Positions 34 to 23,676 of a stretch of 27,932 nucleotides of DNA are shown one piece after another. The first letter of the stretch is position 1. Every line of letters starts with the position of its first letter. The notes beneath the pieces were generated by a model. The model did no database searches and had not been told where the DNA came from. It saw only the letters and a program-made list of their open reading frames with translations. The translations under genes were made by a program, and so were the position numbers. The DNA is from a virus (lineage: Duplodnaviria > Caudoviricetes): the IMG/VR virus record IMGVR_UViG_3300005286_000052, positions 1 to 27,932 of that record. One strand, given 5' to 3'.

Positions 34-77
34 TGTTATGCACTCCCTTTTATAATTTATTTATAGTTTATTCCTGC

Positions 78-355
78 TTTTTATATCTCTCTTATAAAAT
101 TGCGAAGTTCATAATATATTATTACGCTTTAATGTTTCAAAAGTTCTACCCTTTATTGTGGAAACTTCTACCAAGCCGCCATAATCTAATGAGTTAATGC
201 TTATTGCATATTCGTCATCGAGTCTCTTAGAGTTCTGAATAAAAACAAACTCTTTTGATGGCTCAAACATAATACCATTGAGCATATACGGTTTTTTGAA
301 TTTCAATTTTTGTCGTGGTTTCATATCTTTGCTCCTCTCAAGAGAGATATAAAAA
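78..355. repeat. Perfect 16-bp inverted repeat flanking the 71-aa gene
   Basis: TTTTTATATCTCTCTT (78-93) and its exact reverse complement AAGAGAGATATAAAAA (340-355). Confidence 0.85.
109..324 (-). CDS. Small hypothetical phage protein (71 aa)
   Basis: ATG with GAGGAG RBS upstream; normal protein composition. Confidence 0.75.
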   Translation of the reverse strand: MKPRQKLKFKKPYMLNGIMFEPSKEFVFIQNSKRLDDEYAISINSLDYGGLVEVSTIKGRTFETLKRNNIL

Positions 356-950
356 ACGGAACAAACGCTATTAGCGTTGGTCTACAGGCTAACAAGTAAT
401 TGGCACGCTTAATGCATGCTTTGCTTTACTTGTCGCCCAACACAACCCATAGCGCAAAATTGCGTCTTATTGCTGATTGTGTTTATAGTCGTTGATAACG
501 GTTAGACTAATATCACCGTTTAGCGTTGTTTATGAGTCGTTCGCTAAAATGTGCGACTGTTGGGAATGATTCGCCAACTACCATGGATTATAAATGATGC
601 AGGGTAAAACGGTAAAGCCAGTTAGAACGTTTTAATGCTGTTAATGCTTGCTATAAGTAGGTTATAGCTCCTATAAACAGATTAAGATGTACACTCATGT
701 ACAAATGTTGGGAACAATTCACCAACTACTATAGACAATAAAAAACAATAAAAGCTTGGTTGTCACGATTAAGCATTTTACAATGTTTGTGCTAGTATGA
801 TTAGTGTTGTGCTTGTGTAATCGTTAGAGACTAGTGACAAGCTGCTAACAGGGACTAGACAATGATTGTGCTAGGTTGTGACTGTGCCAATAGTTAAAGC
901 TATAGCTTTAATGTTGTGTAGTGCTTTGTTGTATTTGCTATCCTTTAACT
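350..950 (-). ncRNA. Candidate large structured non-coding RNA (~600 nt) or structured leader
   Basis: No ORF >=60 aa; sigmaA promoter immediately upstream; terminator-like end; long-range helices (891-884/406-399, 880-870/453-441, 751-719/498-467 with G-U pairs on the minus strand); 5' hairpin 950-943/899-892. Confidence 0.65.
351..382 (-). terminator. Putative intrinsic terminator ending the candidate ncRNA
   Basis: Minus strand GACCAACGCT-AAT-AGCGTTTGTTCCG followed by TTTTTT; stem short and imperfect. Confidence 0.45.
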
Positions 951-956
951 ATCTTT

Positions 957-985
957 AGTATACTGCTGGCAGATAAAAAATGCAA
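957..985 (-). promoter_or_regulatory. sigmaA-type promoter, TSS near 950
   Basis: TTGCAT (985-980), 17-bp spacer, TATACT (962-957), with an A/T-rich UP-like tract upstream. Confidence 0.8.
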
Positions 986-1019
986 GCACCTTTTTATAAT
1001 TTATTTTTTATAAATATTT

Positions 1020-3838: not shown

Positions 3839-4195
3839 GTACCTGTTTTTGAGTGTTTTGTCATACTTTTTTTGTGATTTTTATAAAAAATGAGCATTTT
3901 GTCAAAGTCTATTTTTAGCCTAAAATCTGAAATCCCTTGATACACAAGGCTTTTCAGCGTTTTTTATGTTGTACCTTGTACATACCTAAAAACGGTCATT
4001 TTGTCAAACTTTTTTTCTTTATATGTACCTGTTTTCGTCATTTTGTCACGCTTTTTTCGTCCAAAATAAGCGTTTTTGGGCATTTTGTCAAAGTGTCGCT
4101 GAAATCCCTTGTCCCACAAGGGATCTCGGAAACCATTTTGTCAAACTTTTTTATTTTGCGGTAATCATTAAGATGATTTTCTAGTCGTTTTGTCA
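3839..4195 (+). repeat. Iteron-like direct-repeat array (putative origin)
   Basis: Seven TTTTGTCA cores starting at 3856, 3897, 3999, 4041, 4083, 4136 and 4188, mostly CATTTTGTCAAA(G/C)T; two CTGAAATCCCTTG..ACAAGG palindromes. Confidence 0.8.
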
Positions 4196-7020: not shown

Positions 7021-8052
7021 CTATATCTTGTTGTCAATGACAGCGTAAGCCAATTGCTCATATGCAGTCATATTTAATTTCTTCAACCCTTCTAAAATTT
7101 GTTCTTTAGAAATGTTATCAAAGATACTATCATCAACTTGAGTAAACATTCTCATGCCAGCTAAATCTTTATAATTGATTGAATATTTTGCATACGACTC
7201 AATAAACACTTCAGAGCTGTTATGTCCTAGTTGTTCCATACCCATTTGGATGTTTCCACGAGTCTTCATTTCATAAACAGCAGCTATCTTACGAAGTGAG
7301 TGAGTTGTAATACGTCCTTTTATATCAAGTGTTGTAGCAGCATTGGTGATCGCATCATGAATATTATCAGGTGTAAGATTTGGGAATAGGCGATCATTGT
7401 TTTCAATTTTAAACTCTAACAACATTTCATACATCCAAGGGAAGATTGGCATAGATTTAACTTTGCTGAATTTCTCTTTTGTTCTTCTTGTGGTCAAAAT
7501 GTACAGTTCTTGATCTTTGTCATAGTCTACATCTTCATAAACCATTGAACTTAAGGCATTCACACGAAGACTAGTAATTGCAGATATAATAATAAAAGCA
7601 AACAACTCTTTACCATAGATATGGCTTTCCTTAATATGCTCAGCGATTCTCAAGGCATCCTCTTTATCTAGTGGTGTATAACTGTCTGGAGTGTATTTAA
7701 TACTCTTAGCTTCAAATATAAAAGGATTACAATCTAAGCCTTCTCCTTTAAGAAAACCAAACAGTCCTCTGACCGTATAAACCATCCGTCTAATTGTTCC
7801 TTGTGGATTTTTTCTTTCTTTATATAGTTCTTCAAGATAGGATTTATAGTTTGTGACATCGCTTTTTTTAATAGGCTCTCCATCTTTTCTAGTAGTAAGT
7901 TCCTTTGCGCTCATGTCGGTAATGTTTTTCTTGTGCAGAAAAAGATAAAATTGTGTGATATCACGCATATACTCAACCTGTGTCTTAAGTTTATAGTTGT
8001 TCAGGAACGAATTGATATACTCCATAGCGCTATCTGTCTTAGTAATTGTCAT
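7021..8052 (-). CDS. Tyrosine recombinase (Xer/Int family)
   Basis: Catalytic residues present: SLRVNAL (R), HSLRK (H-x-x-R), LGH, downstream Y (ESY); probable start ATG 8052 after GAGGTG RBS. Confidence 0.88.
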   Translation of the reverse strand: MTITKTDSAMEYINSFLNNYKLKTQVEYMRDITQFYLFLHKKNITDMSAKELTTRKDGEPIKKSDVTNYKSYLEELYKERKNPQGTIRRMVYTVRGLFGFLKGEGLDCNPFIFEAKSIKYTPDSYTPLDKEDALRIAEHIKESHIYGKELFAFIIISAITSLRVNALSSMVYEDVDYDKDQELYILTTRRTKEKFSKVKSMPIFPWMYEMLLEFKIENNDRLFPNLTPDNIHDAITNAATTLDIKGRITTHSLRKIAAVYEMKTRGNIQMGMEQLGHNSSEVFIESYAKYSINYKDLAGMRMFTQVDDSIFDNISKEQILEGLKKLNMTAYEQLAYAVIDNKI

Positions 8053-8078
8053 CACAAACACCTCACATTATTTTATGT

Positions 8079-11197: not shown

Positions 11198-12002
11198 ATT
11201 TCTTTATAATGAAATCGAATATGCTAAATACGTTGAAGAGCATGGATTTTATTCGAGATATCATAAATCTGAGGTCAAACTCTTAGCAAAGTATTGGAAA
11301 TCTATTGGAATCAAACCTAAGCAACGTAAAGAAAAACTATATGACTTTTGTCAAAAGCATATGCAAAACTTTGAGCGAGAAACACATTATAAGTTTATTA
11401 ATTCAGTAATCGCTTATTCCAATAAAAAAACATCGATCCCTATTGTAATCAAGAGCATTCCAGTTTATAGACACGAATTTGAGTTTTTGAACAATCTCCC
11501 TGTTCAAGAACCATTTAAGAAATTACTGTTTACTATTTTAGTCGAGAAACGCATTAAAAAACAAATTAATTCGATCATAAATAACGAAGAAGTTGATTTG
11601 AAGCAATTGTCACCATACCTAAATATAGACAGCAGATTTGGTAGACTGTTAACTGTTTATTCTAAAATTCCTGCTAAATATAAAATTGATTATATGCTGT
11701 ATGAATTAAATCAAACAGAATTAATTAGCGTCACCGACAGGGAATTGGTTAAGTTAAACTACATAGAACAGTTAAATGAGGTCACTTCAGAAGTATTGAT
11801 TGAAATTAAATCATTTGAATCGCATGGTTATTATTACGATTTGCTATGTGGCGACAAGAAAATTTCATTCTGCGAGGATTGTGGTGTAATTATTAAGCGC
11901 ACATCCAATCGAAAAACACGATGTAATGACTGTAATGAACAGTATAGACGTGAATATATGGCTGATTTAATGAAGAAAAAAAGAGAAAGTGTTAGCAATT
12001 AG
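11187..12002 (+). CDS. Hypothetical protein with C-terminal Cys4 zinc ribbon
   Basis: CEDC-x13-CNDC; overlaps the RNAP gene by 11 nt. Confidence 0.8.
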   Translation: MKNKFLYNEIEYAKYVEEHGFYSRYHKSEVKLLAKYWKSIGIKPKQRKEKLYDFCQKHMQNFERETHYKFINSVIAYSNKKTSIPIVIKSIPVYRHEFEFLNNLPVQEPFKKLLFTILVEKRIKKQINSIINNEEVDLKQLSPYLNIDSRFGRLLTVYSKIPAKYKIDYMLYELNQTELISVTDRELVKLNYIEQLNEVTSEVLIEIKSFESHGYYYDLLCGDKKISFCEDCGVIIKRTSNRKTRCNDCNEQYRREYMADLMKKKRESVSN

Positions 12003-12144
12003 AAACAGTCGTTTAATATCGAGAATTAGGCTAATAAACGGCAATTACATACTTAGCGTAATATTATGAAAGAGTATATAAAAAATAGTTGAATTTTTCA
12101 CTATTAATTAGACTCTTATCATAAAATTTTGGGAGAAAATATTT

Positions 12145-12435
12145 ATGGCAAATAAGGAGAAACCTTATAATAAAGATCATGTTGTAGAAAATTTTGCACG
12201 AAGAATTGGTTCCACGAAACAAGACGCTGAACAAATCCTTGCGATTTTCTTCGATATGACTCGTGATTATATTTATGAATATGGAATGTTTCATTATAAA
12301 AGTGAACTTCAAATAGACACTGATTTTGTGCCTACGCACAAAAAGCAGTTACCCAATGGAGATATAGTAACAGTGCCTGATAGGAATAGATTAAAAGTTA
12401 AACTGATGGAAAACTATAAAAAAATGCTTAAATAG
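12145..12435 (+). CDS. HU/IHF-like DNA-binding protein
   Basis: 'YNKDHVVENFARRIGSTKQDAEQIL' helices plus arm 'PNGDIVTVPDRNRLKVK'; same position as SPbeta yonN. Confidence 0.75.
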   Translation: MANKEKPYNKDHVVENFARRIGSTKQDAEQILAIFFDMTRDYIYEYGMFHYKSELQIDTDFVPTHKKQLPNGDIVTVPDRNRLKVKLMENYKKMLK

Positions 12436-13650: not shown

Positions 13651-13725
13651 ATTTTAATTTAAAAAATAAATTATAAAGTGGAGATACTTGATTCTCCACT
13701 ATCTCTATATAACGAGGTATATGAA

Positions 13726-17556: not shown

Positions 17557-18075
17557 ATGGCTAAAAAAAAGAGCGATCAAAGAGATAAAAGCATACTATC
17601 CAAGCGAAAAATAGAACTTTATTCTAAAAACGCAGAAATTATAAAATATTGGAGAAGAAATCCAGTTATTGCGTGTGAAGACATTCTTGGCATAAAGCTG
17701 ATGGACGCACAAAAATATATATTAATTGAGTCATGGACAAAGCCTTATGTTGTTTGGTGCTGTTCACGTAACTTTGGTAAAAGTTTTCTTGGGGCAATTT
17801 TAATGATACTGAAGTTTCTACTTTACGAGAATCAGCAAATTTATATTATTTCTTCTGTTGGTTCTCAGGCACAAGAAACTTTCATGAAGATAGAAAAAAT
17901 TGCTCAAAATCGAATTGATTCTGTAAAATCGCTGAAAAAAGTGTTTGCAGAAGAGGTTGTAAAAAGTGGTGTGAACAAAGAAGGGTTCACACACAATCCA
18001 GCCAGTTTCAATGTGAAATCTTACAATGGTAGCGAAATTCATACACTAAATGGAAATCCAGATAATAATAGGAGT
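17557..18075 (+). CDS. terL: Terminase large subunit, exon 1
   Basis: 'YWRRNP...LGIKL', Walker A 'CSRNFGKS'; homology-like sequence ends at ...DNNRS. Confidence 0.88.
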
Positions 18076-19072
18076 ATGCAATTGCACGTAGTTTGCTCCG
18101 CTAGTTAGAAATAGCTAGAATAATTCAACGAGGAAGAAATCGGGAAAGCTGAAAATAGTAAATTATAAAATTTACTTGCCAATCCGAGTGGAAGGCTATA
18201 TTTAAAAGTGTAGTCACACGCAGAGCATAGGAATTGAAACTATATACAATAAATACGATGGGAATGTTAGAAGATTGACAGGCGAAATTTATATTATTAA
18301 AAACTATATCAATGACAAGGTTTATATTGGACAAACAATACAAGGTAGTGAAACTAGATTCTTACAACACTTAAAATTGCTGAAAAGTAGTGCGAGACAG
18401 GCTATTCATAAAGCAATAAAAAGACACGGTAAAGAGAATTTTTACTATGAAGTATTAGAGTCAAATATTGAATTTAGTAAACTAGATGAAAGGGAGATAT
18501 ATTGGATTGCATTGTACAAGAGTGATACTCATGGTTACAACCTCATGAAAGGCGGTAATCAGTCTAGGAAGCCAATCAATGTGCAACTACTTGAAAATTT
18601 GCCGACGATTATTGAAATCTATCAGAGCGAAGATATTTCGTTGCGCCAAATCGCAAAGAGATTTGATACGGATCACAAGACTCTATCAAAAATGCTTCGA
18701 GCTAATGGTATACCAATAGCAAAAAGAAATAAGTCTAATAAAAATATAACTTTCGATGATATAGAATTAATAAAAAACCTGTTTGCTAAAGGTGTTAGCG
18801 CACAGGAAATTGCACATAAAATAAACAGAAATATCAAAACTGTGCAGCGATATATTAAATCACATTGTATATAGAATATAATATTGTGTATTATTTACAC
18901 CTTCTTCATATGAAGAAGCCCACGAGTCCTCGTCCCTGACCGAGTAATGTCGAAGGTGAAAAGATATGCCGACCTTATTCTCTGTTAAATAACTAGAGAC
19001 ATGACTGAATACAGTTGTGCCGAATAAAAAGGATAAGAACTATGGGATAAAAAGCCTGTAGGATAACATATG
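18076..19072 (+). mobile_element. Group I self-splicing intron (997 nt) in terL
   Basis: 5' exon ends GGAGU pairing with IGS GCUCC (18095-18099, U-G at splice site); terminal G at 19072; P3 ACGAGGA (18128-18134)/TCCTCGT (18927-18933); P7 GAGCATA (18223-18229)/TATGCC (18965-18970); P10 TTGCACGT/ACGTGCAA; splicing restores in-frame NNRS|KRATLVFFDEAGF. Confidence 0.9.
18275..18874 (+). CDS. Intron-encoded GIY-YIG homing endonuclease
   Basis: 'GEIYIIKNYINDKVYIGQT', 'RFLQH', 'EREIYWI', 'GYN'; two C-terminal HTH-like segments. Confidence 0.9.
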   Translation: MTGEIYIIKNYINDKVYIGQTIQGSETRFLQHLKLLKSSARQAIHKAIKRHGKENFYYEVLESNIEFSKLDEREIYWIALYKSDTHGYNLMKGGNQSRKPINVQLLENLPTIIEIYQSEDISLRQIAKRFDTDHKTLSKMLRANGIPIAKRNKSNKNITFDDIELIKNLFAKGVSAQEIAHKINRNIKTVQRYIKSHCI

Positions 19073-20416
19073 AAACGTGCAACATTAGTATTTTTCGATG
19101 AAGCTGGTTTCTCAAGTGAAGAGATTATTACTATTTCAGAAGCATTTGCTACACAAAATAGTGATTTCTCAACTTCGGTTGATGAAAGTTTTAATCGTAA
19201 AGCTCAATTTAAAAAAAATCCTACTCAGTTAATTTTTGCTTCTTCTGCAAGTTCAACAGACACTATTTTTTATCAACGCTATAAAGAATATGCAAAAAAG
19301 ATGATCATAGGAGATAATAAATATTTTGTAGCAGATATTCCATGTGATATACCACTAAATCCACTTTTAGATGGTGAACCAATAGATCCACTACTTAAAA
19401 AAGAACAAGTGGATAACGCTTTAGCTACTTCTCGTGAAAAAGCACTTAGAGAGTATTATAATAAATTTACCACTGACGGCGGAGAGTCGCAACCAATCAA
19501 AAGAAGTGTAATTGGTAGAAATTCGATAAACACACTTCCTGTTCTCTACAATGAGACTAATCAAGATAAATTCGTGTTTGCTTTTGACCCTGCAAGAACC
19601 TATGATAACTCAATTTGTAGTGTTATGAGGATAGTTCATGATGAAAAAATTGGCTATTATGGTGAAATAGTAAATTGTGTGAGTTTTGCAGATTTAGGTA
19701 AAAAAAAGAAAACCCCTATGAAATCTCCAGAGCAATTAAAGTATTTTAAGCAAATGCTTTTAGACTATAATGGCACAAAAAATCCAGACTATGAAAATAT
19801 TTTAGGAGTGCTTTTTGATAGTGGTGCAGGTGGAGGTGGTATCAGTTCATTTGCAGATAATTTGCTAGAGGACTGGGTAGATGAAAATGGTATTACCCAT
19901 CGAGGCATTATAGATTTAAGTCACGATCAATATAAAGATGACGCAAGCATGTATCCTAATGCTGTAAATATTTTGCAACTCATCAGTCCTAAAAAAATGA
20001 AAGTGCAAATGATGGAACAGTTAATCGAGTTACTAGGATTAGATTTGATTAAGTTTCCAAGAGAGTATGATGGCAAAGAAATTATAAATATTGCTAAAGA
20101 TGTTGAAGAAGATAATAACAAAGAGAGAAAAATTATAGAACGAAGACTTACCATGGAAGAGATTGTTGCTTTAAGCAATATAGATATCATGAAAGAAGAA
20201 ACTTATGCAATTCACAGGTTTAGAGGGGCTAATGGAACTATTAGTTATGATCTTCCTAAAGATAAGCAGAAAAATATGGGCGATGATAGATTTTACACAC
20301 TGCTTATGTTAGCCCATTTTCTCTATCAACTTAGACGTAAAGACACAGTTGTTAAATCCAAACCTAAAGTGGATTGGAGCAAAGCGCCTAATTTAGTTTC
20401 AGCAGTTAGTTTCTAA
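19073..20416 (+). CDS. terL: Terminase large subunit, exon 2 (spliced product 620 aa)
   Basis: Walker B 'LVFFDEAG', 'FASSA', nuclease 'FAFDPAR..D', 'DDRFY'. Confidence 0.88.
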   Translation, partial: KRATLVFFDEAGFSSEEIITISEAFATQNSDFSTSVDESFNRKAQFKKNPTQLIFASSASSTDTIFYQRYKEYAKKMIIGDNKYFVADIPCDIPLNPLLDGEPIDPLLKKEQVDNALATSREKALREYYNKFTTDGGESQPIKRSVIGRNSINTLPVLYNETNQDKFVFAFDPARTYDNSICSVMRIVHDEKIGYYGEIVNCVSFADLGKKKKTPMKSPEQLKYFKQMLLDYNGTKNPDYENILGVLFDSGAGGGGISSFADNLLEDWVDENGITHRGIIDLSHDQYKDDASMYPNAVNILQLISPKKMKVQMMEQLIELLGLDLIKFPREYDGKEIINIAKDVEEDNNKERKIIERRLTMEEIVALSNIDIMKEETYAIHRFRGANGTISYDLPKDKQKNMGDDRFYTLLMLAHFLYQLRRKDTVVKSKPKVDWSKAPNLVSAVSF

Positions 20417-22099: not shown

Positions 22100-23647
22100 A
22101 TGGAAAAATTAGTTTTAAATAGTCCTATTCAAGTTTCTGGGCTAGATGATGATAAACCATATATAGAGCTTACTACACGATTATGTTGGTTTAACTATCC
22201 TAATCTAAATGGAGTGGGTTTGCTTTCTGATTCTAAACCAAGTTATGAAACATTAATCGATATGCCAGTAGTTGCTAAATTACATAGTTCAGGTAAAAAA
22301 TTTGGAAGTCATGAAATAGCAATTGACGACAATGGGCAGTATGTTTTCAACACGAATGCTTATGGAGTACATACTGAAGTTTATGTTGAAGATGATACTG
22401 TTGATATTCCTAACGTGGGCGAAGTCACTGTACCATGTTTGTTTGCAAAAAGCAAGATTTGGAAAAGATTTGCAAGTGTAGTTAATCTAATTGCTAATAA
22501 GATGACAAATCCTGATGAATATAATGGTGGCTTATGGTCTAGTTGGGAGCTACAAGGAAAGAAGTACGTTCTCGATGAAAATGGAAATAGAATGTATAGC
22601 GAATATCAATTTTTGTCTAACTGCTTAATTGATGTTCCACCAGCTTATGGGACTGCCTCAAAGACATTATTAGTGGCTTCTGAGGATATTGAAACAAGCG
22701 AATTTGAACAAGAATTGGAAAATGCTTATATTAAGGACAGTGAAACGCTAATTGCCACACAAAATGACGATAAGGGAGATGAAAATTTGTCCAAAGAAAA
22801 TAAAAACACAGAAACTAGTGAACTAACATCTTATGACTTATATCAAAAAATTCGCAATGCTTTGAATGCAAATGGATGGGATAGTGTACCTTACTATTCT
22901 ATTTTTGAGGTATATCCTGTTATTAATAAGGCTATCGCCTATACGTATGAGCGCGAGTCAGAAGATGATTATGTTATTGTGGAGTACAAAGTTGAAAACA
23001 ACGAAGTTACTATTGATTCATTGCAAAATAAAAAATTGAGTGATTTGTTCTCAGAATTCGATGTGTTGAACTTTAAAGACAGGTTACAAGAAAAAACTCA
23101 AGAATTTTCTGAGCAGTTAACAGCAAAGGATACAGAGATTTCTGAATTAATCAAAACAATTGAAGCAAACAATGTAAAAATTGCTGAATATGAAGACAAA
23201 ATTCTTAAAGCTGGAGAGAGTATTCTACAATATGAAAGTCAAATTGAAACTCTTGAGTCACAAGTGTCTGAACTAGAAACAGTAAAAGAACAACTTTCTC
23301 AATATCAACAAGTTGCACTTGAACAGGAAAAGGCTGAAAAATTGGCGTCATTGAAACAAGTAGCTCTATCGTCTAAGCAATTTACTGATGAAGAAATTAA
23401 TAGCGATGAAAGATTACAAGAAATCTTCTCAGAATTAGATGAAACTGCGTTGAAAGTTTATATTGCTGAACGATTGATTAATTCTTCTGTTGAAACTAAA
23501 GAAGATAACACCGAAGCCTCAGAACAAAAAAAACCAAAAGAAGCAGAACCAATTATTTCAGCAAGCAATTTAGATGTTGACAGAAATAAATTTGGTGAAG
23601 CATGGCTTGCCTCGATGACAACTTTTCGCTACAAATCAAAAAAATAA
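22100..23647 (+). CDS. Prohead protease/scaffold fusion (SPbeta YonD-like)
   Basis: N-terminal domain 'NLNGV...LIDMPVV...H...SSWEL...PAY' followed by an acidic coiled coil; between portal and capsid; likely start ATG 22100. Confidence 0.7.
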   Translation: MEKLVLNSPIQVSGLDDDKPYIELTTRLCWFNYPNLNGVGLLSDSKPSYETLIDMPVVAKLHSSGKKFGSHEIAIDDNGQYVFNTNAYGVHTEVYVEDDTVDIPNVGEVTVPCLFAKSKIWKRFASVVNLIANKMTNPDEYNGGLWSSWELQGKKYVLDENGNRMYSEYQFLSNCLIDVPPAYGTASKTLLVASEDIETSEFEQELENAYIKDSETLIATQNDDKGDENLSKENKNTETSELTSYDLYQKIRNALNANGWDSVPYYSIFEVYPVINKAIAYTYERESEDDYVIVEYKVENNEVTIDSLQNKKLSDLFSEFDVLNFKDRLQEKTQEFSEQLTAKDTEISELIKTIEANNVKIAEYEDKILKAGESILQYESQIETLESQVSELETVKEQLSQYQQVALEQEKAEKLASLKQVALSSKQFTDEEINSDERLQEIFSELDETALKVYIAERLINSSVETKEDNTEASEQKKPKEAEPIISASNLDVDRNKFGEAWLASMTTFRYKSKK

Positions 23648-23676
23648 ATTATAAAAAAATTTGGAGGAATTTAATA

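What the first reader, a model, noticed from the sequence alone, without database searches (positions are those of the whole stretch)
350..985. Candidate ~600-nt ornate phage ncRNA with its own promoter and terminator
Seen: near-consensus sigmaA promoter (TTGCAT-17-TATACT), then ~600 nt without a credible ORF, ending in a hairpin plus U6. On the minus strand the 5' end forms a hairpin (AGUUAAAG/CUUUAACU enclosing AUAGC/GCUAU). Distant segments are complementary: AUUGGCAC (891-884)/GUGCCAAU (406-399), and CACAACCUAGC (880-870)/GCUA-ug-GGUUGUG (453-441). A long interrupted helix UUAUUGUU..AUUGU.UAUAGU.GUUGGUGA (751-719) pairs with 498-467 and uses G-U pairs on this strand. Crossing pairings AUGCUUAAU (776-768)/AUUAAGCGU (413-405) and CUAGU/ACUAG with GUUAG/CUAAC (858-823) suggest pseudoknots or alternative folds. 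Known: Bacillota phages carry large ornate RNAs of similar size (ROOL, GOLLD) with unclear function. Inference: this is such an RNA, possibly a new class, or a long antitermination leader for the early operon downstream.
Basis: partly seen in the sequence, partly recalled or inferred. Interest (0 to 1): 0.85.

Follow-up and report, generated by a model that had tools for sequence, protein, structure and literature searches.

The report
Conserved hairpin in mosaic phage leader
The proposed 600-base phage RNA is a patchwork of non-coding sequence in which only one 125-base long hairpin is shared with the single related phage found; that hairpin likely acts as a folded signal in the early transcript, so this is a modest new RNA candidate, not a giant ornate RNA.

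Summary
The window is a 27.9-kb fragment of an uncultured SPbeta-like phage that encodes a YonO-type RNA polymerase. Region 350-985 is non-coding. It folds better than shuffled controls on both strands (z -4.4 and -3.9, 0 of 100 shuffles each), whereas seven coding windows gave z +1.8 to -2.2. The signal is local: only the 3' end (about 345-500) and 751-900 stand out.

Rfam gives no match to any family, ROOL, GOLLD, OLE and raiA included. Only one relative was found, a complete 180-kb IMG/VR phage. It shares just about 125 nt (window 882-759, 74% identity). The remaining roughly 430 nt and the downstream ORF are absent from that genome.

The shared core is a long hairpin. Its 21 consensus pairs are all kept, and all six substitutions in paired columns form three G-C to A-U compensatory changes. 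The consensus energy lies z -5.8 against column shuffles.

The functional strand is unresolved. Gene context favours the minus strand; G-U pairs and ensemble probabilities favour the plus strand.

His promoter matches 8 of 12 positions, and his terminator is atypical.

Best reading: a modular leader carrying one new conserved hairpin, probably a cis RNA processing or stability signal. Function is untested.

The parts
759..882 (.). Conserved core: a long imperfect hairpin of about 125 nt. Minus-strand pairs are P1 882-878/766-762, P2 872-865/784-781+775-772, P3 862-860/789-787 and P4 858-854/796-792. The apex (about 853-797) is variable. The functional strand is unresolved.
   Evidence: It is the only part alignable to relative L005 14038-14155 (74.4% over 125 nt). 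RNAalifold gives 21 pairs, 3 compensatory and 0 broken. All 6 substitutions in the 42 paired columns are compensatory. Column-shuffle z is -5.8, 0 of 1000. On the plus strand there are 33 pairs, 5 compensatory and 3 one-sided changes, z -4.95.
957..985 (-). Putative sigma-A-type promoter: TTGCAT (985-980), 17-nt spacer, TATACT (962-957). An A/T-rich repeat lies just upstream (993-1006).
   Evidence: Read. It matches 8 of 12 consensus positions and falls below the threshold of the scans. The upstream motif is one of 4 exact copies in the window. Promoter activity is inferred, not shown.
890..952 (-). Hairpin (10-bp outer stem 952-943/899-890) that would sit flush with the 5' end of a transcript starting about 7 nt after the -10.
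   Evidence: (-10.4 kcal/mol, z -2.28). Not conserved in L005. A competing small hairpin lies at 910-893.
559..726 (-). Two copies of a 46-nt direct repeat (549-594 and 697-742), each holding a 20-nt palindromic hairpin (578-559 and 726-707). A promoter-like site TTTACC-18-TATAAT lies at 616-587, just upstream of one copy.
   Evidence: family D3, 78% identity; 2 exact matches; 0.18 expected. Absent from L005. A role as operators or RNA hairpins is inferred only.
345..470 (-). Lineage-specific structured 3' domain: a long hairpin (about 438-387), the small hairpin 378-364, and U6 at 356-351.
   Evidence: -42.8 kcal/mol, z -3.65, 1 of 200 shuffles. (z -4.20 and -3.20). No counterpart in the relative's genome.
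340..355 (-). 5' arm of a 16-bp perfect inverted repeat whose partner is 78-93. The two arms bracket the SD and ORF71 (324-109).
   Evidence: pair I6, 100% complementary. By reading, the pairing extends to about 21 bp with wobbles.
109..338 (-). Shine-Dalgarno sequence (about 338-331) and a 71-aa ORF of no known family: the gene this leader would feed.
   Evidence: no Pfam or PHROG match; no named Atlas neighbour. No homologue in the relative's genome.

Best explanation
The 636-nt span is a lineage-specific, non-coding, hairpin-rich stretch in which only a ~125-nt long hairpin (window 882-759) is conserved and kept paired by compensatory changes; this hairpin is predicted to be a cis-acting RNA fold in the early minus-strand transcript, likely a double-strand-RNase (RNase III-type) processing or stability signal.

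SHOWN: the non-coding nature, the local rather than global structure, conservation restricted to the core, the compensatory pairs, and the absence of any Rfam match.

INFERRED: that the core is transcribed on the gene-sense strand, from the weak promoter at 985-957 in this phage and from a strong promoter 565 nt upstream in the relative; that it acts as RNA; and that the action is cleavage or stabilisation. Under this reading the flanking pieces are separate, replaceable modules: the 5'-flush hairpin, the two palindromic repeats, the 3' long hairpin, and the 16-bp repeat bracketing ORF71.
For: STRUCTURE IS REAL AND LOCAL.

CONSERVATION IS LIMITED TO THE CORE. blastn and MAFFT against the only relative align just 759-882. 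Window 330-760 and ORF71 have no match in that complete genome.

PAIRING IS SELECTED. There are 21 consensus pairs, 3 compensatory changes (880/764, 871/773, 860/789, all G-C to A-U) and 0 broken. The only 6 substitutions in the 42 paired columns are those three pairs. By contrast, 28 of 57 apex columns differ. Sliding the 3' partners by 1-3 columns drops pairing to 17-37% with 0 compensatory pairs. The consensus energy is -11.3 against -1.8 +/- 1.6 in 1000 column shuffles; none of the shuffles has >=3 compensatory changes with >=21 pairs and nothing broken.

RNA RATHER THAN ssDNA. RNA folds reach -25 to -40 kcal/mol with z to -3.8. DNA folds reach -11 to -15 kcal/mol with z -1.4 to -3.1.

SENSE TRANSCRIPTION. 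All flanking genes lie on the minus strand. The relative has an 11-of-12, TG-extended promoter on the same strand upstream of the core, and no promoter-like site on the opposite strand near it.

PRECEDENT. Stable stem-loops with small internal bulges are the classic Bacillus RNase III targets, and phage SP82 early mRNA carries such sites (passages of PMC4838370 read).
Against: There are only two sequences, so covariation rests on three events, and the tool's own shuffle control is uninformative (63 of 500).

On the gene-sense strand the helix is interrupted by a 5x5 internal loop and a 5-nt bulge. In the relative, the consensus pairs have a mean ensemble probability of only 0.04 on that strand, against 0.95 on the opposite strand.

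On the plus strand the same ladder gains G-U pairs. No A-C type mismatch appears on that strand (and my reading), which points to the antisense strand.

The element is single-copy in the relative's 180-kb genome, and the base of its stem is conserved in sequence. Neither is required of an RNase III site.

No transcript, cleavage site or expression data exist.
Confidence: 0.4

Rival explanations
1. The conserved hairpin functions on the plus strand as an antisense or independent small RNA, a rod-like fold of ~125 nt read opposite to the early genes, which would regulate or be processed together with the sense transcript.
For: The plus-strand consensus has 33 pairs, 5 compensatory and 3 one-sided (A-U to G-U) changes, and 0 broken, with z -4.95. 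The consensus pairs are probable on this strand in both phages (0.75 and 0.95) but on the sense strand in only one (0.96 and 0.04). Three of the five remaining differences outside the apex become structure-consistent on this strand. All transition-type mismatches in the ladder are G-U on plus and none are A-C (my reading).
Against: No sigma-A-like promoter was found on that strand upstream of the hairpin in either phage, and no conserved terminator follows it. The plus strand is G+U-rich, so G-U pairs arise easily: 11-12 of 46-47 MFE pairs are G-U, and the single-sequence z is only -1.95 in the window.
Confidence: 0.2
2. The hairpin acts as single-stranded DNA, for example as a single-strand initiation or primosome-assembly signal that belongs to the adjacent replication module (Rep gene, iteron-like and AT-rich tracts).
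For: It is single-copy per genome. It is syntenic with the helicase, Rep and AT-rich block in both phages. It is about 125 nt of imperfect hairpin with a conserved base. Compensatory changes fit any single-stranded nucleic acid. Plasmid single-strand origins and the pAMbeta1 ssiA site are of similar size (recalled, not checked here).
Against: The ssDNA folds are weak (-10.9 to -15.1 kcal/mol; z -1.4 to -3.1; the centroid is empty for one strand). In the relative, four small genes separate the core from the AT-rich tract by about 1.2 kb. The defining motifs of known single-strand origins were not tested.
Confidence: 0.15
3. The core is a put-like or other processive antitermination RNA that acts in cis on RNA polymerase downstream of an early promoter, so that transcription reads through the hairpin-rich leader into the small early genes.
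For: It lies about 70 nt downstream of the putative promoter in the window and downstream of a strong promoter in the relative. Terminator-like hairpins follow it.
Against: No canonical terminator lies downstream: the U-run sits 7 nt from the stem. The distance to the promoter is not conserved (about 70 nt against about 565 nt). No Rfam antiterminator family matches.
Confidence: 0.1
4. The core is a DNA-level feature without RNA function: a decaying palindromic or miniature mobile element, or two inverted protein-binding sites kept alike by gene conversion.
For: It is the only conserved island between non-homologous flanks. It is about 125 bp of imperfect palindrome, like ERIC, Correia or bcr1-type repeats (recalled). 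The surrounding segment is bracketed by direct repeats (45-62 and 989-1006).
Against: It is single-copy in the relative's genome. It was found in 0 of 151 Bacillales-order genomes searched. The mismatches and bulges are the same in both phages while the stem substitutions are all compensatory. Neutral decay or arm homogenisation would not produce that pattern.
Confidence: 0.1
5. The whole ~600 nt is one large ornate RNA whose 3' two-thirds evolve too fast to align.
For: The corresponding ~510 nt of the relative also fold far better than shuffles (z -5.66 and -5.45, 0 of 100 shuffles each). Both phages keep about 380-430 non-coding nt between the core and the next gene.
Against: The middle 300 nt carry no structure signal. 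Three of the four proposed long-range helices have probability near 0. There is no sequence or motif sharing outside the core. The span contains internal promoter-like and operator-like modules.
Confidence: 0.05

Closest known systems
Large ornate phage and bacterial RNAs (ROOL, GOLLD, OLE, raiA)
   Same: Non-coding, found in a Bacillota-type phage, a few hundred nt long, and folding better than shuffles.
   Different: No Rfam hit at gathering score on the whole window, and none at E<=10 on 250-1100. Only 125 nt are conserved. The structure is one rod-like hairpin, not a multi-domain fold. The rest of the span is unique to this phage.
RNase III processing hairpins in phage early mRNAs (Bacillus phage SP82 sites; classic B. 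subtilis targets described in PMC4838370)
   Same: A long imperfect stem-loop with small internal loops in an intergenic part of an early, same-strand transcription unit. The same leaders also carry other long duplexes: the 16-bp repeat around ORF71, and a ~55-nt inverted repeat in the relative.
   Different: Cleavage is not shown. The sense-strand helix has a 5x5 loop. The stem base is conserved in sequence and the element is single-copy, which such sites do not need.
HK022 put-type cis antitermination RNAs
   Same: A structured RNA placed after an early promoter and ahead of hairpin-rich sequence.
   Different: It is a single long hairpin rather than two short stem-loops (recalled). The distance to the promoter is variable. 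No terminator is shown downstream. Nothing was tested.
Single-strand origins and single-strand initiation sites of Gram-positive plasmids (ssoA type; pAMbeta1 ssiA)
   Same: About 130 nt of imperfect, strand-specific hairpin, single-copy, near a Rep gene and an AT-rich tract.
   Different: The predicted ssDNA stability is weak. The core is separated from the AT-rich tract by genes in the relative. The family's conserved motifs were not examined (recalled only).
The non-coding RNA modules at the head of the YonO-transcribed late operon of SPbeta-type phages (Forrest et al. 2017, PMC5467207, passage read)
   Same: Same phage group, and a non-coding structured tract.
   Different: The place and orientation differ: the tract here lies on the replication/early side, about 7.5 kb upstream of the YonO gene on the opposite strand. 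No sequence relation was seen.

Membership tests
ROOL / GOLLD / OLE / raiA and every other Rfam 15 family | Match to the family's covariance model at its gathering score | tested here: not met
   0 matches among 4227 families on the whole window; at E<=10 on 250-1100 the only match is a 35-nt plant-virus stem-loop (19.2 bits against a gathering score of 60; E 2.6), which is noise.
Large ornate RNA (generic) | Several conserved domains with covarying long-range pairs over most of the length | tested here: not met
   Only 759-882 aligns to the relative. Window 330-760 is absent from its genome. Three of the four proposed long-range helices have probability 0.00-0.02.
Conserved structured RNA element (generic) | Base pairs maintained by compensatory substitutions, above a null | tested here: met
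   The caveat is that only two sequences exist; the tool's shuffle control is uninformative.
Sigma-A promoter | -35 and -10 hexamers close to consensus at 16-18 nt spacing | tested here: inconclusive
   It matches 3 of 6 and 5 of 6 positions with a 17-nt spacer (read). It is below the scan threshold and is not listed. An A/T-rich tract lies upstream.
Intrinsic terminator | G+C-rich stem followed directly by a U-run | tested here: inconclusive
   The scan lists 378-364 (6 pairs, 3 of them G-C). However, the U6 (356-351) starts 7 nt after the stem and is an arm of the 16-bp inverted repeat with 78-93.
RNase III-type processing site | About two turns of near-continuous double-stranded RNA | tested here: inconclusive
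   On the sense strand there are 21 Watson-Crick consensus pairs in 5+4+4+3+5 blocks, with a 5x5 loop and a 5-nt bulge. On the plus strand the blocks are 9+3+5+3+5, including G-U pairs.
RNase III-type processing site | rnc-dependent cleavage | not testable with these tools
   No RNA data exist for this uncultured phage.
Plasmid-type single-strand origin / ssi signal | Stable strand-specific ssDNA fold | tested here: inconclusive
   -10.9 to -15.1 kcal/mol, z -1.42 to -3.10.
Plasmid-type single-strand origin / ssi signal | Family-specific conserved motifs and priming activity | not tested
   The motifs are recalled only and were not typed or searched.
Miniature palindromic repeat (ERIC / Correia / bcr1-like) | Many dispersed copies | tested here: not met
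   There is one copy in the relative's 180-kb genome and one in the window. It was found in 0 of 151 Bacillales-order genomes. The host genome is unknown.

The most novel reading that the evidence does not exclude
The core is a new, lineage-restricted, strand-specific rod-like element that works from the strand opposite to the early genes. It would be either an unrecognised antisense regulator RNA of a YonO-polymerase phage, or a phage single-strand initiation signal attached to a DnaD-type replication module. The sequence-unrelated but equally structured ~400 nt behind it in both phages would be fast-evolving partner domains.
Probability: 0.3. Interest if true: 0.5.

Novelty: new member of a known kind. 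Interest (0 to 1): 0.3.

Why it matters
It removes a candidate from the short list of possible new giant ornate RNAs. It shows how a hairpin-dense phage leader can imitate one. It also leaves a defined, testable 125-nt element whose pairing is under selection, in a poorly known branch of SPbeta-like phages. If the element proves to be an RNase III-type signal, it would extend an old observation from SP82 to temperate YonO phages. If it works from the plus strand or as ssDNA, it would be a new regulatory or replication element. With only two copies known, its wider importance is limited for now.

Tried and rejected
SEARCHES FOR MORE HOMOLOGUES
- blastn of 300-1050 against 50,697 phage records: none.
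- blastn of 330-1000 against plasmids: none.
- The relative's version against phages: none.
- Rep protein in IMG/VR and by tblastn in phages: none.
- Helicase in IMG/VR: 1 locus, the only relative.
- Two core patterns in IMG/VR: each found the same relative plus one chance hit inside a gene.
- The palindrome pattern in IMG/VR: none.
- Core pattern in metagenome contigs: 24 loci. One is the window itself. The other 23 share no more than 25 nt.
- YonO relatives in species genomes: 3 prophages, no element by blastn, nhmmer or the covariance model.
- Covariance model on 151 Bacillales-order genomes: 0.
- Covariance model on 15 further IMG/VR YonO loci: nothing below E 2.
- Covariance model on 10 whole records: the best hits are E 0.02, which lies inside a 232-aa ORF, and E 0.59.

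IDEAS TESTED AND DROPPED
- Type I toxin: the hydrophobic 26-aa plus-strand frame 878-958 is not conserved in the relative (my reading).
- Local hairpin with a GNRA-type loop at 785-774: rejected in favour of the long-range pairing, because the C/U change at 773 covaries with 871.
- attP: the 23 metagenome pattern hits show no extended identity.
- SPBRE/MrpR operator: the paper's text gives no motif letters, so this was not tested.

NO RESULT
- Sequencing runs: no RNA holder is listed. Three DNA runs of one study hold the stretch. None was laid.
- Earlier findings of this scan: nothing by sequence or by place.
Full report
CONTEXT

The window is a whole IMG/VR virus record of 27,932 bases, estimated about 19% complete. 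Pfam and PHROG scans find these genes:
- on the minus strand, a Rep protein with DnaD_N, HTH_36 and phage-O-like matches (3627-2785), a RecD2-type helicase (6918-4489) and a tyrosine-recombinase-like protein (8061-7021);
- on the plus strand, a 929-aa protein followed by PhoH, an exonuclease, a ClpP-type protease and a split large terminase.

The 929-aa protein is a YonO-type single-chain RNA polymerase. It is 58% identical to a protein of Bacillus phage BUCT082 (genus Spbetavirus) and about 25% identical to SPbeta YonO. The finding lies inside a 2.4-kb gene-free tract (325-2785) downstream of rep. All neighbouring genes, including a 71-aa ORF with a strong Shine-Dalgarno sequence (324-109), are on the minus strand.

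CHECKING THE OBSERVATION

The span is non-coding. The minus strand has no ORF of 25 aa or more, and the longest stop-to-stop frame that lies wholly inside the span is 34 aa.

The hexamers TTGCAT (985-980) and TATACT (962-957) with a 17-nt spacer are there. They match the consensus at only 3 and 5 of 6 positions, and the promoter scan does not list them.

A transcript starting about 7 nt after the -10 would begin flush with the hairpin 952/950-890 (-10.4 kcal/mol, z -2.28).

The terminator is a 6-bp stem (378-364) with the U6 (356-351) 7 nt further on. That U-run is one arm of a perfect 16-bp inverted repeat whose partner (78-93) lies beyond ORF71.

The whole span folds better than dinucleotide shuffles on both strands: minus -149.5 against -123.2 +/- 6.0, z -4.36; plus z -3.88; 0 of 100 shuffles each (first estimates). 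Seven 606-nt coding windows of the same record gave z +1.82, -0.31, +1.19, -1.43, -2.23, -0.65 and +0.82. The signal is therefore real.

It is local, however. Among 150-nt windows on the minus strand, only 301-450 (z -4.20), 351-500 (-3.20) and 751-900 (-4.10) stand out. The seven windows from 401-550 to 701-850 range from -1.86 to 0.00.

In the ensemble of the full-length minus RNA, three of his four long-range helices have probability 0.00-0.02. Only 751-719/498-467 is predicted, with mean probability 0.60.

KNOWN FAMILIES

Rfam 15 gives nothing at gathering score on the whole window. At E<=10 on 250-1100 there is only one noise hit. The element is not ROOL, GOLLD, OLE, raiA or any other catalogued family.

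RELATIVES

Only one relative could be found, a complete 180.5-kb IMG/VR phage with terminal repeats (L005 / G004). Its helicase is 76% identical and its YonO 75% identical to the window's.

The two phages are syntenic across helicase, rep, a strand-asymmetric tract and an AT-rich repeat tract. Inside the finding, though, only window 759-882 aligns, at 74.4% over 125 nt. Window 330-760 and ORF71 have no counterpart anywhere in that genome.

In the relative, four small ORFs lie between the AT-rich tract and the core. A strong same-strand promoter (11 of 12, TG-extended) sits 565 nt upstream of the core.

All other searches were empty. These covered phage and plasmid records, pattern scans of IMG/VR and of metagenome contigs, three prophages and fifteen viral contigs carrying YonO relatives, ten whole viral records, and 151 Bacillales-order genomes searched with a covariance model built from the two cores. 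Two weak model hits remained, one of which lies inside an ORF.

THE CONSERVED CORE

RNAalifold on the two cores predicts one long interrupted hairpin on the gene-sense strand, with a variable apex:
- P1 882-878/766-762
- P2 872-865 with 784-781 and 775-772
- P3 862-860/789-787
- P4 858-854/796-792

This gives 21 pairs, none broken, and three with both sides changed (880/764, 871/773, 860/789, each G-C in the window and A-U in the relative). These six positions are the only substitutions in the 42 paired columns. In the 57 apex columns, 28 differ.

Sliding the 3' partners by 1-3 columns lowers pairing to 17-37% and removes all compensatory pairs. The tool's shuffle control cannot discriminate with two rows (63 of 500). 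Shuffling alignment columns within conservation classes gives a consensus energy of -1.8 +/- 1.6 against the observed -11.3 (z -5.8, 0 of 1000). No shuffle has >=3 compensatory pairs together with >=21 pairs and no break; 43 of 1000 have >=3 compensatory pairs at all.

The conserved partner is ACUAG at 796-792.

WHICH STRAND?

For the minus (gene-sense) strand:
- gene orientation and promoter-like sites favour it;
- single-sequence z-scores are slightly better for it: -3.53 against -1.95 in the window, and -3.82 against -3.08 in the relative.

For the plus strand:
- the same ladder there gains G-U pairs, giving 33 pairs, 5 compensatory and 3 one-sided changes, none broken, z -4.95;
- all transition-type mismatches in the ladder are G-U on plus and none are A-C (my reading);
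- the consensus pairs are probable on plus in both phages (0.75 and 0.95) but on the sense strand in only one (0.96 and 0.04).

Against reading too much into this, the plus strand is G+U-rich, so 11-12 of its 46-47 MFE pairs are G-U, which weakens the argument.

As ssDNA the folds are weak: -10.9 to -15.1 kcal/mol, z -1.42 to -3.10.

I regard the strand as unresolved. RNA is more likely than ssDNA.

THE REST OF THE SPAN

Between the core and ORF71 lie three features:
- two copies of a 46-nt repeat, each with a 20-nt palindromic hairpin (578-559 and 726-707; 2 exact matches against 0.18 expected), one of them just downstream of a 10-of-12 promoter-like site (616-587);
- a strongly folded 3' domain (345-470; -42.8 kcal/mol, z -3.65);
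- the 16-bp repeat bracketing ORF71.

None of these occurs in the relative. Yet the relative's own ~510 nt from the core to the next gene fold just as unusually (z -5.66 and -5.45). They hold a ~55-nt inverted repeat around two repeated small hairpins.

The shared architecture is therefore: core, then about 400 nt of replaceable hairpin-rich sequence, then a Shine-Dalgarno sequence and a small gene. It is not a shared large RNA.

MECHANISM

SHOWN: a single, syntenic, ~125-nt element whose pairing is under selection, embedded in mosaic non-coding sequence.

INFERRED: that it is transcribed with the early genes and acts in cis as RNA.

My best guess (0.4) is a double-strand-specific processing or stability signal. 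Long stem-loops with small internal bulges are the classic Bacillus RNase III substrates, and phage SP82 early mRNA carries such sites (PMC4838370, passages read). The same leaders also hold other long duplexes.

Rivals:
- a plus-strand antisense or stand-alone RNA (0.2);
- an ssDNA replication signal of the adjacent Rep module (0.15);
- a put-like antitermination RNA (0.1);
- a DNA-level palindrome or mobile relic (0.1);
- a single fast-evolving ornate RNA (0.05).

Papers consulted, as passages only:
- bioRxiv 10.1101/2021.11.22.469490: the packaging start lies between yonR and yonP.
- PMC10516654: the MrpR repressor binds the repeated SPBRE element; the motif appears only in a figure.

Nothing found in two literature searches describes this element. 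That claim is limited to those two searches.

VERDICT

The ornate-RNA interpretation is not supported, and the leader alternative remains viable. What remains is a new, two-member, unclassified conserved hairpin of untested function. Interest is modest.

Noticed in passing
window 78-93 and 340-355: A perfect 16-bp inverted repeat brackets the SD and the 71-aa ORF (246 nt between the arms). By reading, it extends to about 21 bp with wobbles. It could be a long-range mRNA duplex or the ends of a small inserted cassette.
   Followed up: partly
window 49-62(-), 993-1006(-), 13664-13677(+), 23642-23655(+): A 14-nt A/T-rich motif occurs 4 times exactly, always in the local gene-sense orientation and next to gene starts or the putative promoter. 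There are 5 matches at <=1 mismatch against 0.53 expected, and 0 of 100 shuffles reach 5. It may be a recurrent promoter or UP-like element, or a module boundary. Copies at 45-62 and 989-1006 flank the whole core + leader + ORF71 segment.
   Followed up: partly
window 3895-4146; L005 9435-9686: A cluster of five copies of a 13-nt repeat lies upstream of rep, partly inside a 94-aa ORF. Three similar copies sit at the same place in the relative. A related word at 1645-1661 lies in a 33-nt block that is 94% conserved between the phages. These are iteron or operator candidates.
   Followed up: partly
window about 1700-2780; L005 about 11621-12260: A 1.1-kb gene-free tract has extreme strand asymmetry: GC skew reaches -0.8 and there is almost no G on the plus strand. 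The plus strand has nearly zero folding energy. The tract holds 29-nt and 16-nt repeats. The same property is present in the relative (read). It is unexplained; it may hold Rep-binding repeats.
   Followed up: no
window about 1000-1690: A tract of 23-27% G+C is packed with direct and inverted repeats of a TATAAG-like word. Its position next to rep is origin-like. The GC skew changes sign at about 1690.
   Followed up: no
window 17557-20416: The large terminase is split into a 183-aa ATPase part and a 448-aa part, with a GIY-YIG/HTH homing endonuclease gene (18275-18874) between them. Rfam reports no intron there.
   Followed up: no
L005 14297-14510: In the relative, a ~55-nt A/T-rich inverted repeat encloses two repeated small hairpins whose 13-nt loops contain GGA. 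It lies just upstream of the next gene's SD. It is unrelated in sequence to the window's leader.
   Followed up: no
window 7021-8061 (-): A 346-aa protein has only weak tyrosine-recombinase matches (Pfam E 5e-8). It could be an integrase or an MrpR-like recombinase-derived repressor as described for SPbeta (PMC10516654). This was not examined.
   Followed up: no
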